Notes under the pieces: model-generated | The model's input: the letters and a program-made list of their open reading frames with translations, nothing else | Database searches by the model: none | What the model was told of the DNA's origin: nothing | Assembly (NCBI RefSeq): GCF_009914755.1 | Contig: NC_060933.1 | DNA length: 64,000 bases | Reading direction: 5' to 3' (one strand) | Source: the human T2T-CHM13v2.0 reference genome, Homo sapiens | Shown here: one piece after another, positions 59,722 through 64,000 of the stretch | Layout: each line of letters starts with the position of its first letter | How positions within the stretch are numbered: position 1 is the first letter of the stretch | Position numbers and translations under genes: made by a program

Positions 59722-60207
59722 TGACAAAAATTCTCTCCATAACCAGACTCTAGCCATACTCCTTTGAACTCTCTTGTCAACTAAACCCTGGCTTTTGGGC
59801 TTTTGTGTTGTCTATAAATTGCCCAATATTAGTAAGAATCCTAGCAAGGCAATTTAGTCAGAATCCTCCATCTTCATATCTGACCACCATTGGTATCTAA
59901 TTGGTTTTCTTATTGTCTACCATCCCCAGGTGATATCTGATCACTCTGGCATGGCTTCAGCAAGAATTCTGTGAGGTCAGTTTAGCCAGATTCCCTCCTA
60001 TTAGTAATTTTCCGTACACTACCAACCCTCCACCCTGCTCTGTGGCTATAAAATTTCTATTCAGAGGGAAACCTGAATATATGGAAACTGGAGATTACTG
60101 CAAGACCCTATTGCAGTAATCTCTGTATCTATTGCAATAATCCCTCTGAATAAAGTTTGTCTTACTATTTTTTAACAGGTGTCACGAATAGTTTTTTCTA
60201 TAATACA
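59722..60207 (+). mobile_element. MER31A-like ERV1 LTR
   Basis: TGACAAAAATTCTCTCC...CAGGTGATATCTGATCAC...CTTCAGCAAGAAT...GGCTATAAA...AATAAAGT...ACA. Confidence 0.75.
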
Positions 60208-60504
60208 GCTCAACAAAACAAGTCTGAAATAGAAGAATAAAGTGGGAGGAATTATTCTCCCCAATTTTTTAACTTTTTACATAGCTACAGAAATCAAGAC
60301 AGTGTGGTATTGGCAGGGGGACAGACAGTTCAATAAAACAGAATTGAGAACTCAGAAATAGTTCCATACAAGTACAACCAACTGACTTTTGAAAAAAGTG
60401 CAATATCAATTCAATAGTACAGTGGTTCTGGAGCAGTTAGATATCATAGACAAAACAATAACCTCAATCTAACCTCATGTCTTTATTAAAAAAAAAAAGG
60501 ATCA

Positions 60505-60802
60505 CCCGGGCGTGGTGGCTCATGCCTGTAATCCCAGCACTTTGGGAGGCTGAGGCGGGAGGATCACGAGGTCAGGAGATCGAGACCACCCTGGCTAACA
60601 AGGTGAAACCCCGTCTCTGCTAAAAATACAAAAAAATTAACCGGGCATGGTGGCAGGTGCCTGTAGTCCCAGCTACTCGGGAGGCTGAGGCAGGAGAATG
60701 GCGTGAACCCGGGAGGCGGAGCTTGCAGTGAGCCGAGATGGCACCACTGCACTTCCAGCCTGGGCGACAGAGCGAGACTCCATCTCAAAAAAAAAAAAAA
60801 AA
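60505..60802 (+). mobile_element. AluY
   Basis: Diagnostic GGATCACGAGGTCAGGAGATCGAGACC, GAATGGCGTGAACCCGGGAGGCGGAGCTTGC; A tail. Confidence 0.95.
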
Positions 60803-61249
60803 TCACATATCTCAATGTAAAAATATGAAATTTAATGAGAAATTCTTCAGGTCCTAGGACTTGATGAATAATTATTAGACATGACACCAGAAAAGCACAA
60901 TCAATTCTAAGAATTTATTAATTGGATGTTATCAAAATTTAAAACTTTTGCCCTGCGTAAGAGCCTGTTAATAAAAAGACAGGGTAAAAACTGGAAGAAA
61001 AGTGCAAACCACACCTGATAAACCATATCTGACAAGGAGCTCATATCTAGAATATTGTTTAAAGTTTTCAAAAGTCAACAACGACAACAAGAAAAAACAA
61101 GCCAATTAGAAAATGGGCTAAAGGCATGAACCGATATTTCACTGAACAGGATAGATTGATGGAAAATGAGAAAATAAAATAACTTTTATCAGAGGAATGC
61201 CAGTCCTTTTAAATTATCAAGCCCAGAGAGACATTAAAATAAGACAGCA

Positions 61250-61540
61250 GGCCCGGCACGGTGGCTCACGCCTGTAATCCCAGCACTTTGGGAGGCCAAG
61301 GCGGGCGGATCACAAGGTCAGGAGAACAAGACCATCCTGGCCAACACGGTGAAACCCAGTCTCTACCAAAAATACAAAAAATTAGCCGGGCGTGGTAGCA
61401 CATGCCTGTAGTCCCAGCTACTCGGGAGGCTGAGGCAGGAGAATGGCATGAACCCAGGAGGCACAGGTTGCCGTGAGCCAAGAGCGTGCCACTGCACTCC
61501 AGCCTGGGCAACAGAGTGAGACTCCATCTCAAAAAAAAAA
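61250..61540 (+). mobile_element. Alu (AluSc/Y-like)
   Basis: Full dimer with A tail, followed by a short L1PA 3' end (CTGCACATGTACCCCGGAACTTAAAATAAA). Confidence 0.92.
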
Positions 61541-61664
61541 GGAAAACTGCATGTCCTGCACATGTACCCCGGAACTTAAAATAAATACATAAGTACATAA
61601 ATAGAATTTTAAAAAAATCTTAATTGTATGTGGGTAGGTCCCTTTGATTGAAAGTGAGATAGAA

Positions 61665-61978
61665 GGATGGGCGCAGTGGCTCATGCCTGTAATCCCAGCA
61701 CTTTGGGAGGCAGAGGCGGGCAGATCACAAGGTCCGGAGATCGAGGCCATCCTGGCTAACACGGTGAAACCCCGTCTCTACTAAAAATACAAAAAGAAAT
61801 TAGCAGGGCGTGGTGGTGGTGGGCGCCTGTAGTCCCAGCTACTCAGGAGGCTGAGACAGGAGAATGGCTGGAACCCGGGAGGCGGAGCTTGCAGTGAGCC
61901 AAGATCACGCCACTGCACTCCAGCCTGGGCGACAGAGAGGGACTCCGTCTCAAAAAAATAAAAAAAATAAAAAAAAAG
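61665..61978 (+). mobile_element. AluY-like with a 15-bp TSD
   Basis: TSD GAAAGTGAGATAGAA at 61650-61664 and 61979-61993. Confidence 0.95.
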
Positions 61979-62524
61979 GAAAGTGAGATAGAAATAATTT
62001 TTTAAAACTTACTATTCAAAATTTGCAAAACTAAATAAGAGTAAAAGAAATTTACATTTTGTCCCTGGATTCACAGAAGACAAAAACATTGTGTGGGAAA
62101 GCTGGAGTTGAGGACGAACGAGATTCTGAAAATAAAAATCCCTGGTACATAGCCAAAATTTCAGAGTCAACTACAGATTTTCAAAGGCTATGAAATAGGT
62201 AACCTCAAGCCACCGACTCCAATAGATAAAAGGAACCAGGTAATATCTGTGTTCCAGGGAGAAAGAATAGAAAACTGGCTGAGTTCTATCACTGACAAAA
62301 CTTAGTGCAAAGGAGGGATCTGGAAGGCGGGAGGGTGAAGGGATCCCCGGCTTGGAGGGTGGGGAGGGGCTGTGCTTCGGCCTCCCCCTCCTACTGCCCC
62401 TCCCCAACAAAGGAGCCCTTTGTGATGTGAAGCCCCAGCTCTGTGATGCGGGCCTGGGCCCCAGTCCCTAGTCTCCACGAGGATGCCCAGAGCTCAGTTG
62501 CTAGAAAGCAATGCGCCTATTCAC

Positions 62525-62713
62525 ATGGAGAATCTTCCCTTTCCTCTAAAATTACTTAGTGCCTCATCACTAAACACCCCCAGCTCCACACCATGGGTGT
62601 TGGATATCTTCCTCACCTTGGTGTTTGCCCTGGGGCTCTTCTTCCTATTACTCCCCTACTTCTCTTACCTCCGTTGTGACAACCCACCCTCACCATTGCC
62701 TAGGAAGAGAAAG
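62525..62713 (+). CDS. SPATA31C1: SPATA31C-type exon 1 (63 codons; in-frame upstream ATG at 62483); downstream exons not in the window, possibly an orphaned duplicate
   Basis: [63 protein letters not shown]; donor GTAAGG at 62714; intron 1 is homologous to SPATA31E1 intron 1. Confidence 0.7.
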
Positions 62714-63321
62714 GTAAGGAGCTCTCAGTCCAGACCCACAGAGCTTGATTCTCTTCTTTCTTTTTATTATTAGTTCCACCTTTCCAAATCCAGTGGAGAC
62801 TTCTGCGATGGGAAGTCTCAGGAGAGACCAGAACAGCATGCTTCCAGGGAGAGGCAGGGCAGCCAGGGGTTGGTAGGGGTAGATCGTGTACTGGGATTTC
62901 CATCCCAAGCTCTCAGTCCATCTGTGGGGGAGCCAGGAGGCATGAAGGCAAAATCAAACCCGTGGGCTCAGCGGCCAGGACCGGTCATGAGACGGGGGAG
63001 GTCTCTGGTCATGAGACGGGAGGTCTCTGTCCGAGGCCAGGCCCTGAGCCCTGGCTCATCAGTCCCTTCCTGGGGCAGGTGGCTCGGGACCCAGCCTCTT
63101 CTGTGTGGGGTGATATGGGGCCTGTGCTGGGCCCCCGAGGGCCTCCCACCGGGGCCTGGCATCTCCTCTGGTCTCCTGGCAAGCAGAATGCTACCTGACA
63201 GCTCAGTGGTGCCTGCGGGCCTGAGCCTGGGTGTTCCTGGAGCAGAGGAACAGGGACTGATGGCGTCCATGGTGGACCTCATATTGAAAATCCCTGTGTG
63301 TGTGCGTGTGTGTTTGTGTGT

Positions 63322-63602
63322 TATTTTTATTTATTTTGTTTTTTGTGCAGGCTGCAGTGAAATGGAGCGATACCGGCTCAGTGCCACCTTTGCTTCCAGA
63401 GTTCAAGCTATTCTCCTGTCTTAGCGTACTGAGCAGCTGGGGATTACAGGCGCCCGCCACCACACCTGGCTAATTTTCGTATTTTTAGTAGAGATGGGGT
63501 TTCACCATGGCCAGGCTGGTCTCAAACTCTTGACTTTAGGTGATCCACCTGCCTCGGCCTCCCAAAGTGCTGGGATTACAGGCATGAGCCACCGCGCCCG
63601 GC
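63322..63602 (-). mobile_element. Alu (AluS-type body, probably chimeric at its 5' end)
   Basis: Minus strand GGTGGATCACCTAAAGTCAAGAGTTTGAGACCAGCCTGG; diverged right arm. Confidence 0.9.
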
Positions 63603-64000
63603 TGATCCTTTTTTTTTTAATAAAGACATGAGGTTAGATTGAGGTTATTGTTTTGTCTATGGTATCTAACTGCTCCAGAACCACTGTACTATTGAACTGA
63701 TATTGCACTTTTTTCAAAAGTCAGTTGGTTGTACTTGTATGGAACTATTTCTGAGTTCTCAATTCTGTTTTATTGAACTGTCTGTCCCCCTGCCAATACC
63801 ACACTGTCTTGATTTCTGTAGCTATGTAAAAAGTTAAAAAATTGGGGAGAATAATTCCTCCCACTTTATTCTTCTATTTCAGACTTGTTTTGTTGAGCTG
63901 TATTATAGAAAAAACTATTCGTGACACCTGTTAAAAAATAGTAAGACAAACGTTATTCAGAGGGATTATTGCAATAGATATAGAGATTACTGCAATAGGG
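63603..64000 (-). repeat. Inverted duplicate of 60106-60504 (~99% identical), running off the window end
   Basis: The reverse complement matches except for about 4 substitutions and one A-run length difference. Confidence 0.97.

What the first reader, a model, noticed from the sequence alone, without database searches (positions are those of the whole stretch)
60106..64000. Recent inverted duplication enclosing the SPATA31C promoter and exon 1, with a chimeric-Alu breakpoint
Seen: 63603-64000 is the ~99% identical reverse complement of 60106-60504, leaving a 3.1-kb spacer that holds the promoter and exon 1. Both arms abut an Alu 5' end at the same base. The left Alu is AluY throughout, whereas the right one matches it for only about 60 nt and then becomes a diverged AluS (GATCACCTAAAGTCAAGAGTTTGAG). 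Inference: an Alu-Alu template switch between the upstream AluY and the oppositely oriented intron-1 Alu. This could leave exon 1 orphaned or as an alternative first exon, allow the spacer to invert like a promoter switch, and form a long fold-back in any spanning RNA.
Basis: partly seen in the sequence, partly recalled or inferred. Interest (0 to 1): 0.72.

Follow-up and report, generated by a model that had tools for sequence, protein, structure and literature searches.

The report
Duplicated SPATA31C1 promoter with inverted spacer
The inverted repeat is real, but it is one piece of an already published 3.5-kb tandem duplication of the SPATA31C1 promoter and first exon, built on a hybrid Alu junction that SPATA31C2 also carries, so it is an ordinary, fairly old segmental-duplication scar rather than a promoter switch.

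Summary
Observation confirmed. Window 60106-60497 and 63609-64000 are 99% reverse-complementary, and the window end cuts the right arm. With the next 10 kb fetched, the arms are 59864-60545 and 63561-64242: 682 nt, 9 mismatches, 2 gap positions.

The new fact is that the 'spacer' is copy 1 of a direct tandem duplication. Window 60775-63600 equals 64243-67072 at 99.2%, with a 3468-nt period. A second intact exon 1 therefore lies about 2 kb past the window end. That second copy is inferred to be the RefSeq-selected exon 1.

The right Alu is truly chimeric, with a crossover in a 28-nt shared stretch. The other junction, J2, is blunt. SPATA31C2 carries both junctions base for base, but there the units are purely direct, with no inverted arm pair. 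A 94%-identical single-copy paralogue at chr9:105.05 Mb shows the ancestral order.

Favoured history, at about 55%:
- J2 arose when the 30-kb SPATA31C2 copy was made.
- The hybrid Alu arose by ordinary same-orientation Alu-Alu crossover in C2.
- The unit then reached C1 by interlocus conversion.

Bekpen et al. 2017 already report the promoter and exon 1 duplication. Interest is low.

The parts
59864..60497 (+). Arm A, left copy, in its ancestral orientation. It is a fragment of an old LINE-like repeat. The C1/C2 homology and the arm both start at 59864.
   Evidence: Searches give the homology edge at 59864. One search shows 58415-61161 collinear, at about 60-65% identity, with the large masked repeat at 53066-55493. 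One search shows the single-copy paralogue C3 collinear across 58643-63602. One search finds 5 near-identical copies genome-wide.
60506..60802 (+). Upstream Alu 'Y'. It is full length and has its own target-site duplication (about AAAAA(G)GATCA). It is the parent of the 5' part of the hybrid Alu. The subfamily name AluY comes from recalled diagnostic positions and from the 'three AluY' wording in Bekpen 2017.
   Evidence: Sequence. The alignment includes its orthologues in C2 and C3. One search shows Alu-to-Alu matches at 60506-60803.
60529..60556 (+). Crossover interval on the Y parent. This is a 28-nt stretch shared by Y and S, lying between the last Y-specific base (60528) and the first S-specific base (equivalent to 60557).
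   Evidence: alignment of Y, S and the two hybrid Alus.
60775..63600 (+). Tandem unit copy 1, segment B. It comprises the Alu Y tail, LINE-like sequence, two further plus-strand Alus (61251-61546 and 61669-61968), the promoter, the exon 1 copy, the start of intron 1, and the 3' part of the intron Alu. Its twin lies at 64243-67072, outside the window.
   Evidence: direct match at 99.2% over 2830 nt; 14 substitutions in 2786 aligned sites; 5 copies genome-wide.
61940..62713 (+). Annotated alternative first exon of SPATA31C1, used by non-selected transcripts. It starts inside an Alu and ends at the exon 1 donor.
   Evidence: Hub gene table. The donor at 62713|GTAAGG was confirmed.
62525..62713 (+). 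Coding part of the upstream exon 1 copy: ATG plus 63 codons, intact. It differs from the downstream copy at 2 residues (R50 versus C50, L58 versus S58).
63348..63603 (-). Hybrid Alu, junction J1. About 63348-63550 is the 3' part of intron Alu 'S'. The crossover lies at 63551-63578. About 63579-63603 is the 5' part of Alu Y.
   Evidence: The same hybrid, with the same crossover interval, is found in SPATA31C2.
63609..64000 (-). Arm A', the inverted copy, cut by the window end. It continues to 64242, where the blunt junction J2 joins it to the Alu Y tail of tandem unit 2 at 64243.

Best explanation
What is there (shown). In gene orientation the SPATA31C1 5' region reads W - A - AluY - B - [hybrid Alu J1] - A' (inverted) - J2 - B - AluS - rest of gene.
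- B is 2.8 kb and carries the promoter and exon 1. It is present twice in direct orientation, with a 3468-nt period.
- The arms therefore enclose only the spare upstream promoter and exon 1. Both exon 1 copies keep the ATG, 63 codons and the splice donor.

How it most likely arose (inferred):
1. C1 originally had the single-copy order A-Y-B-S, as the paralogue at chr9:105.05 Mb still has.
2. A multi-switch replicative event copied about 30 kb of C1 in inverted orientation to a site 168 kb away, making SPATA31C2. The copied path was 90731 back to 60775, then a blunt strand switch (J2) to 59864 and forward to 60906. An 18-nt snippet from the Alu at the far end of the copied segment followed, then the unique target sequence.
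3. In C2, this left Alu Y and Alu S on the same strand, 3.5 kb apart. Ordinary unequal Alu-Alu crossover between them gave the hybrid Alu J1 and a pure tandem duplication.
4. Interlocus gene conversion, or crossover between the inverted C1/C2 copies, carried one unit (J1-A'-J2-B) into C1. There it sits opposite the native A, and the inverted repeat is a by-product.

Consequences (inferred):
- The locus holds a spare first exon and promoter.
- The 2.8-kb direct repeats can gain or lose units.
- The 0.68-kb inverted arms could flip only the spare cassette.
- The arms would pair only in RNAs that span both, such as the intron of the antisense lncRNA LOC497256.
For: Structure:
- One search shows the inverted match 59864-60762 / 64242-63348 and the direct match 60775-63600 = 64243-67072 at 99.2%.
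- Searches show that all 5 of 5 exon 1 copies (C1 x2, C2 x2, C3) keep the ATG, 63 codons and the GT donor.

Single origin shared with C2:
- J2 reads ...GAGATGGAGTCT|TCCTCCATC... identically in 3 of 3 J2-bearing copies.
- The J1 crossover interval is identical in 2 of 2 hybrid Alus.

C2 is purely direct:
- The C2 self-comparison gives one direct repeat of 3750 nt at 97.5% and no inverted pair of 350 nt or more.
- Both C2 arm hits are on the plus strand.

Ancestral order:
- C3 is collinear and single copy.
- W-A-b0 is collinear with a LINE-like repeat that Alu Y interrupts.

C1 is the parent and C2 the copy:
- The Alu at the inner end of C1 is full length, with the target-site duplication GAAAATAATTTGG.
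- In C2 that Alu is cut after about 31 nt and abuts an AT-rich palindromic repeat.
- The sequence outside the outer end of C2 is unique in the genome.

J2 belongs to the C2-forming event:
- The outer end of C2 is b0, then 3-nt TCA microhomology, then an 18-mer.
- That 18-mer has only one other exact copy in 254 kb, which holds 30 generic Alu-core matches. The other copy is the very Alu at which the duplication ends.

Lineage of the arms:
- All three J2-linked A copies, including the C2 copy attached to a full Alu Y, share 3 derived substitutions (60014, 60154, 60409) against C1-left plus C3.
- They also share the 60513 state.
- C1-left has 4 private changes.

Interlocus exchange:
- The four B copies differ by only 0.47-0.83%, with mutually conflicting site patterns.
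- Bekpen et al. 2017 report concerted evolution of the C copies (passages).
Against: - The order of events is inferred from one human genome. No ape or population data could be consulted.
- The favoured history needs three events, including the transfer of a 3.5-kb insertion from C2 to C1. The rival needs two, though more contorted, events.
- The four B copies give no clean tree. 3 sites put C1_B1 outside the rest and 2 sites put C2_B1 outside. 5 sites are locus-specific, 3 are position-specific and 1 fits neither grouping. Nothing there points to a direction of transfer.
- One site in the S part (TACGAAAA in both C1 S copies against TACAAAAA in both C2 copies and in C3) and one in A (60281: C in both C1 arms, A elsewhere) group by locus. 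This fits duplication within C1 as well as later homogenisation.
- The 18-mer at the outer end of C2 is Alu-derived. It could be a native Alu remnant of the target site rather than a templated insertion.
Confidence: 0.55

Rival explanations
1. The rearrangement arose in cis in SPATA31C1 by one replicative event with two template switches. The first switch went from the antisense intron Alu S to the oppositely oriented upstream Alu Y (J1), copying A backwards. The second was a blunt switch (J2) back to the Alu Y tail, re-copying B. The finished structure was then copied into SPATA31C2.
For: - In C1 the two parental Alus are inverted and only about 2.5 kb apart. The product (B, inverted A, B) is what such a path gives.
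- One homology junction plus one blunt junction is the pattern described for rearrangements mediated by inverted repeats (PMC4352052, abstract only).
- Two sites group by locus: TACGAAAA in both C1 S copies, and 60281 in both C1 arms.
- This history needs only two events.
Against: - C2 carries J2 twice, plus a full-length inverted Alu Y and b0 next to unique sequence. A straight copy of C1 cannot give that. It needs two further homology-driven switches during copying, or a later transfer.
- The switch from A' back to the native A-Y would have to fall in a window of about 20-40 nt. The outer A-Y of C2 carries all 3 derived states of the J2 lineage and the 60513 state.
- In C2 the same hybrid Alu is explained by the commonest Alu mechanism, crossover between Alus in the same orientation.
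Confidence: 0.3
2. Assembly artefact. The inverted arm and the second unit are a mis-join or a collapsed or expanded repeat in T2T-CHM13.
For: The region is a high-identity segmental duplication, where assemblies can err. I had no read-level data.
Against: - J1 and J2 occur at two loci 225 kb apart. Each copy has private substitutions and poly-A lengths.
- Unit copies differ at 13-23 sites, so they are not duplicated reads.
- Bekpen et al. 2017, working on hg38, report that each C gene is preceded by a duplicated promoter and first exon (passages).
Confidence: 0.03
3. The right Alu is an independent insertion of a single, uniform Alu at the same site, not a hybrid. The arm similarity is then simply an inverted duplicate of LINE sequence.
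For: Alu insertions favour A-rich sites such as the one at the arm end.
Against: - The 5' flank and the first 23 or so Alu bases equal those of Alu Y.
- The remaining 200 or so bases and the 3' flank equal those of intron Alu S, whose intact copy has a different 5' flank (…CAGGAAGAGGGGG).
- The hybrid has no matching target-site duplication.
Confidence: 0.01

Closest known systems
Published SPATA31C gene structure (Bekpen et al. 2017, BMC Genomics 18:222, PMC5338094; passages and Additional file 3 seen)
   Same: [quoted passage not shown] It describes the C promoter as a composite of LINE, three AluY and ERV1 pieces after several rearrangements. It also reports that the C copies evolve in concert.
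   Different: The passages and the one supplementary figure I could read mention none of the following: the inverted 0.68-kb arm, the hybrid Alu, the blunt junction J2, the difference in arm orientation between C1 and C2, or the breakpoints of the 30-kb C1/C2 duplication. I could not see Figures 1 and 2, because figures are not held.
Alu/Alu-mediated rearrangement leaving a chimeric Alu (for example PMC13041450, abstract only; the Alu enrichment at segmental-duplication junctions reported by Bailey, Liu and Eichler 2003 is recalled, not read)
   Same: Two parental Alus are identifiable. The hybrid carries the 5' part of one and the 3' part of the other. The crossover falls inside a 28-nt shared stretch, and the flanks do not match.
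   Different: This is a fixed, evolutionary event inside a gene-family duplication rather than a disease allele. Whether the Alus were direct (C2 context) or inverted (C1 context) when they recombined is unresolved.
Complex rearrangements mediated by inverted repeats (DUP-TRP/INV-DUP; PMC4352052, abstract only)
   Same: An inverted segment lies between two direct copies. One junction lies in a pair of inverted repeats and the other is blunt or microhomologous.
   Different: No segment is triplicated. The inverted piece (A) lies outside the directly duplicated piece (B). The C2 evidence also suggests that the two junctions arose in separate events.
Invertible promoter cassettes flanked by inverted repeats
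   Same: A promoter-bearing 3.1-kb segment lies between 0.68-kb inverted repeats of 98.7% identity.
   Different: There is no recombinase and no evidence of the other orientation. The copy I infer to be the main promoter and first exon lies outside the arms, so inversion would not switch the gene.

Membership tests
Alu/Alu-mediated rearrangement junction (chimeric Alu) | Both parental Alus can be identified, and the junction Alu is 5' of one and 3' of the other | tested here: met
   In the alignment the hybrid follows Alu Y up to CCTGTAAT and follows Alu S from GAGGCAGGTGG onward. This holds in 2 of 2 hybrid copies (C1 and C2).
Alu/Alu-mediated rearrangement junction (chimeric Alu) | The crossover lies in a stretch of shared identity | tested here: met
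   A 28-nt interval, 60529-60556 / 63551-63578, is shared by both parents.
Alu/Alu-mediated rearrangement junction (chimeric Alu) | The hybrid lacks a matching target-site duplication and its flanks come from two different insertions | tested here: met
   The 5' flank is the Alu Y flank (A-run + GGATCA). The 3' flank is the Alu S flank (…AATAACACACAAACAC). The intact S copy has a different 5' flank.
Inverted-repeat-mediated template-switch rearrangement (DUP-TRP/INV-DUP type) | One junction lies inside a pre-existing pair of inverted repeats at the locus | tested here: inconclusive
   Y and S are inverted in the C1 context but direct in the C2 context, which carries the same junction. Which context hosted the event cannot be decided from one genome.
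Inverted-repeat-mediated template-switch rearrangement (DUP-TRP/INV-DUP type) | A triplicated segment whose middle copy is inverted | tested here: not met
   In C1, B is present twice and both copies are direct. A is present twice, one copy inverted. Nothing is present three times at the locus.
Tandem duplication creating an alternative first exon and promoter | Direct repeats each carry the promoter, an intact start codon and the splice donor | tested here: met
   One search shows 99.2% identity over 2830 nt. Searches show ATG, 63 codons and GTAAGG in both C1 copies, with 2 amino-acid differences.
Tandem duplication creating an alternative first exon and promoter | Transcripts start at the upstream copy | not testable with these tools
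   The hub table lists an exon 61940-62713 in non-selected transcripts. Bekpen et al. [quoted passage not shown] No expression data were available here.
Invertible promoter switch | Orientation of the flanked segment decides expression of the adjacent gene | tested here: not met
   The downstream exon 1 copy lies outside the arms, in unit 2 at 65997-66185. I take it to be the exon 1 of the selected transcript, because the hub table shows that transcript has no exon in the window.
Invertible promoter switch | Both orientations are observed | not testable with these tools
   Only one haplotype is held. In it the spacer has the same orientation as unit 2.

The most novel reading that the evidence does not exclude
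The whole history of the SPATA31C1/C2 pair may still be legible at base resolution.
- One four-junction replicative event made the 30-kb inverted copy. It left a blunt fold-back-like junction and an 18-nt templated snippet.
- A same-strand Alu-Alu crossover then doubled the promoter and exon 1 in C2.
- Interlocus conversion exported the unit to C1. There it created, as a by-product, a 0.68-kb inverted repeat around an intact spare promoter and first exon.
- That cassette could still be polymorphic in humans, both in copy number and in orientation, and it encodes an N-terminus that differs at two residues.
Probability: 0.4. Interest if true: 0.35.

Novelty: new member of a known kind. Interest (0 to 1): 0.27.

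Why it matters
SPATA31 is one of the fast-evolving, copy-variable gene families of hominoids. Knowing that each C gene carries two intact promoter and first-exon cassettes matters for annotation. The window copy is a spare, not the main exon 1. Short reads and CRISPR guides aimed at exon 1 will hit four sites in the two C genes.

The exact junctions J1, J2 and J3 give simple markers. With them, ape and pangenome assemblies could be used to date the events and to score unit copy number or orientation. Beyond that, this is a textbook example of Alu-associated segmental-duplication architecture and raises no new principle.

Tried and rejected
2. I looked for a tree of the four B copies to get the direction of transfer. 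The site patterns conflict. Among the sites where one copy stands outside the rest, 3 put C1_B1 outside, 2 put C2_B1 outside, and none put C1_B2 or C2_B2 outside. A further 5 sites are locus-specific, 3 are position-specific and 1 fits neither grouping. This gave no direction.
3. I looked for microhomology at J2 and found none. An 8-nt inverted match (AGATGGAG / CTCCATCT) brackets the junction, but it is in the wrong sense to prime the observed switch. I treat it as unexplained.
4. I considered a staggered-break inversion model for the C1/C2 pair. It predicts that one of the two inner junctions of the copy is ancestral. Both C2 ends are novel and both C1 ends are ancestral, so I rejected it.
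5. I considered that the outer A-Y-b0 of C2 derives from a flipped-spacer form of C1. This would still need a second origin or a transfer of J1, so it is not simpler.
6. Literature: searches for 'SPATA31C1' + 'SPATA31C2' + 'segmental duplication' (7 papers matched, 5 listed) and for 'SPATA31C1' + 'inversion' (1 paper) found only Bekpen et al. 2017 as relevant. Its Additional file 3 is a figure whose extracted text gives no junction detail. I found no description of the inverted arm or the hybrid Alu in these searches. Figures 1 and 2 of that paper are not held and may show more.
7. Alu subfamily calling was not possible with a tool, because no Dfam or RepeatMasker is available. The names AluY and AluS rest on recalled diagnostic positions and on the paper's 'three AluY'.
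8. A first attempt to extract the 18-mer was mis-indexed (first part). It was corrected.

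
Full report
**1. The observation**

The repeat finder on 58000-64000 lists seven inverted pairs. The best is 60106-60497 / 63609-64000: 392 nt, 99% complementary, 3111 nt apart. Reading both strands confirms three things:
- Each arm ends at an A-run followed by GGATCA and the 5' end of an Alu, at the same base.
- The left Alu continues as one element to its poly-A at 60788-60802.

The pair is not chance. Genome-wide, the 392-nt arm has five full-length hits at 97-100% identity. 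The other 35 of 40 scored hits (1232 candidates) are partial matches at 72-79%, typical of an old interspersed repeat.

**2. What the window end hid**

The window is chr9:100006001-100070000 of the held genome. I fetched the next 10 kb and compared the extended locus with itself. Two results change the picture.

- The inverted match runs 59864-60762 / 64242-63348. The true arm is 682 nt (59864-60545 versus 63561-64242), with 9 mismatches and 2 gap positions.
- The 'spacer' is itself duplicated. Window 60775-63600 equals 64243-67072 in direct orientation, at 99.2% over 2830 nt, with a period of 3468 nt. That is 14 substitutions in 2786 aligned sites.

In gene orientation the locus therefore reads W - A - AluY - B - [hybrid Alu, J1] - A' inverted - J2 - B - AluS - rest.

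Each B carries an intact exon 1. The window copy has its ATG at 62525, then 63 codons, then the donor AAG|GTAAGG after 62713. The second copy is at 65997-66185, with two amino-acid differences (R50/C50 and L58/S58).

The hub table fits this. The selected transcript has no exon in the window, and the exon 61940-62713 belongs to other transcripts. The arms therefore enclose the spare cassette, not the main one. Assigning the selected exon 1 to the second copy is by homology, because I could not see the annotation past 64000.

**3. The junctions**

An alignment of all arm and Alu copies gives the following.

J1:
- The hybrid Alu follows Alu Y through …CTCATGCCTGTAAT.
- It follows the intron Alu S from …GAGGCAGGTGGATCACCT onward.
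- The crossover lies in a 28-nt shared stretch (60529-60556 on the left, 63551-63578 on the right).
- Its 5' flank is that of Y and its 3' flank that of S. The intact S copy at about 66820-67080 has a different 5' flank.

J2:
- It lies at 64242|64243, outside the window.
- It joins the reverse complement of 59864 to 60775, inside the last bases of Alu Y before its tail.
- It shows no microhomology.

The names AluY and AluS rest on diagnostic positions that I recall, and on the statement of 'three AluY' in the C promoter in PMC5338094. No repeat library was available.

**4. Relatives in the same genome**

Two other loci carry these segments.

(a) chr9:105.045-105.055 Mb ('C3'):
- It differs from the B copies by 5.75-6.0%.
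- It is collinear with W-A-Y-B-S-rest and holds one A and one B. This is the unduplicated order.
- Supporting this, W-A-b0 is collinear with a LINE-like repeat elsewhere in the window (53066-55493), and Alu Y interrupts it.

(b) SPATA31C2, on the minus strand at chr9:100264358-100295326:
- In gene orientation it reads X' - b0' - Y' (full length) - A' - J2 - B - J1 - A' - J2 - B - S - rest.
- Its self-comparison shows only a direct 3750-nt repeat at 97.5%, and no inverted pair of 350 nt or more.
- J2 is base-identical in 3 of 3 copies. The J1 interval is identical in 2 of 2.
- Each junction therefore arose once and was then shared between the two genes.

**5. The C1/C2 duplication**

- It runs from the window positions 59864/60775 to 90727, about 30 kb. 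The two copies are inverted and separated by about 168 kb.
- The distal 23.4 kb differs by 147 of 23401 sites, or 0.63%.
- Both C1 ends are ancestral. W|A is collinear with C3, and the Alu at the inner end is full length with the target-site duplication GAAAATAATTTGG.
- Both C2 ends are novel. The inner end cuts that Alu after about 31 nt and abuts an AT-rich palindromic repeat.
- The outer end is b0 up to about 60906, then a 3-nt TCA overlap, then an 18-mer (CACACCTGTAATCTCAGC), then sequence found nowhere else in the genome.
- In the 254 kb I held, which contains 30 generic Alu-core matches, that exact 18-mer occurs only twice. One copy is here and the other is in the very Alu where the duplication ends.

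I read this as a single multi-switch copying event with the path Z2 | rc(90731..60775) | 59864..60906 | 18 nt | X. J2 would be one of its junctions. This is inference. The 18-mer could instead be a native Alu remnant of the target site.

**6. Order of events**

Favoured history (about 55%):
- J2 and J3 arose when C2 was made.
- In C2, Y and S then lay on the same strand 3.5 kb apart. Ordinary unequal Alu-Alu crossover made J1 and a tandem duplication.
- One unit later moved to C1 by interlocus conversion or crossover. There it faces the native A and creates the inverted repeat.

Support:
- The outer A of C2, which is attached to a full Alu Y, shares all three derived substitutions of the J2 lineage (60014, 60154, 60409) and the 60513 state with the J1-linked copies.
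- The left arm of C1 has four private changes.
- Each step is a common mechanism.
- Exchange between the C copies is documented as concerted evolution (PMC5338094, passages).

Against:
- This history needs three events.
- The four B copies (0.47-0.83% apart) give conflicting site patterns and no direction of transfer.
- Two sites group by locus.

It fits C1 alone very well. To explain the second J2 of C2 and its full inverted Alu Y, however, it needs extra homology-driven switches within a window of about 20-40 nt, or a later transfer.

**7. Age**

The arms differ by 1.3% (9 of 682), against 0.63% for the bulk of the duplication. The paper reports two C copies that are more alike within human and within chimpanzee than between the two species. 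The event is therefore probably not recent, and the low divergence elsewhere reflects homogenisation. This is inference. No ape sequence was available here.

**8. Function**

Shown: two intact promoter and exon 1 cassettes lie in tandem.

Inferred:
- The upstream copy can serve as an alternative first exon. RefSeq models say it does; Bekpen et al. say the extra promoters appear silent.
- The 2.8-kb direct repeats can change the unit number.
- The inverted arms could flip only the spare cassette, so the locus is not a promoter switch for the gene.
- RNA fold-back needs a transcript that covers both arms. The annotated sense transcripts do not, because they start at 61940 or later. The intron of the antisense lncRNA LOC497256 (15240..87297) does.

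**9. Known or new**

The duplicated promoter and first exon in front of each C gene is in print (PMC5338094; passages seen; the text of Additional file 3; figures not held). The following are not in what I could read:
- the inverted arm;
- the hybrid Alu;
- the blunt J2;
- the different arm orientation in C1 and C2;
- the breakpoints of the 30-kb duplication.

Two searches found nothing else relevant. All of these are instances of well-known Alu-associated segmental-duplication architecture (abstracts of PMC13041450 and PMC4352052).

Verdict: a real, correctly observed feature whose interpretation is partly right. It is an ordinary kind of feature and of low interest.

Noticed in passing
L011:5300-5345 (chr9:100295300-100295345), the outer end of the SPATA31C2 duplication: Junction J3 consists of the copied segment ending at about window 60906, a 3-nt TCA overlap, and then an 18-mer. 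The only other exact copy of that 18-mer in 254 kb is in the Alu at the opposite end of the duplicated segment (window numbering 90716). It looks like a short templated insertion from a multi-switch copying event.
   Followed up: partly
L024 (chr9:100264270-100264358), the inner end of the SPATA31C2 duplication: The duplication ends about 31 nt into an Alu and abuts about 90 nt of AT-rich palindromic repeat (TAATTATAATTTAATTAAAAATTAATTA…). This is a plausible fragile target site.
   Followed up: no
L013-L014 (chr9:105045119-105054821): This is a third SPATA31C-like locus. It differs from the C1 and C2 B copies by 5.75-6.0% and has the single-copy A-Y-B-S order. Exon 1 is intact (ATG, 63 codons, GT donor), but the longest open frame in the large exon is only 435 codons, against 1183 in C1. 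It is probably a pseudogene. Its name is unknown to me.
   Followed up: partly
L010-L011 (SPATA31C2 large exon, open frame starting at chr9:100286909 on the minus strand): The longest open frame in the large exon of C2 is 1064 codons, against 1183 in C1. I did not locate the truncating difference.
   Followed up: no
window 58482-58812: A 168-nt segment is tandemly repeated (58482-58649 versus 58645-58812, 95% identity), just upstream of the arm, inside the LINE-like sequence.
   Followed up: no
window numbering 64225-64262 (L009:225-262), junction J2: An 8-nt inverted match (AGATGGAG … CTCCATCT, 5 nt apart) brackets the blunt junction. The same 8-mer, CTCCATCT, is present in both parents, at the start of A and in the Alu Y tail region. 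It is in the wrong sense to act as primer-template microhomology, and its role, if any, is unexplained.
   Followed up: partly
L010 (chr9:100288230-100288260), the intron Alu S of SPATA31C2: The 5' end of this Alu carries a short internal duplication (…GGGTGCAGTGGCTCAC GGTGCGGTGGCTCAC…). It is absent from the C1 and C3 copies.
   Followed up: no
window 60281 and its partner in the right arm (about 63825): Both C1 arms carry C here, where both C2 copies and C3 carry A. This is either a small conversion between the inverted arms of C1 or a parallel change.
   Followed up: no
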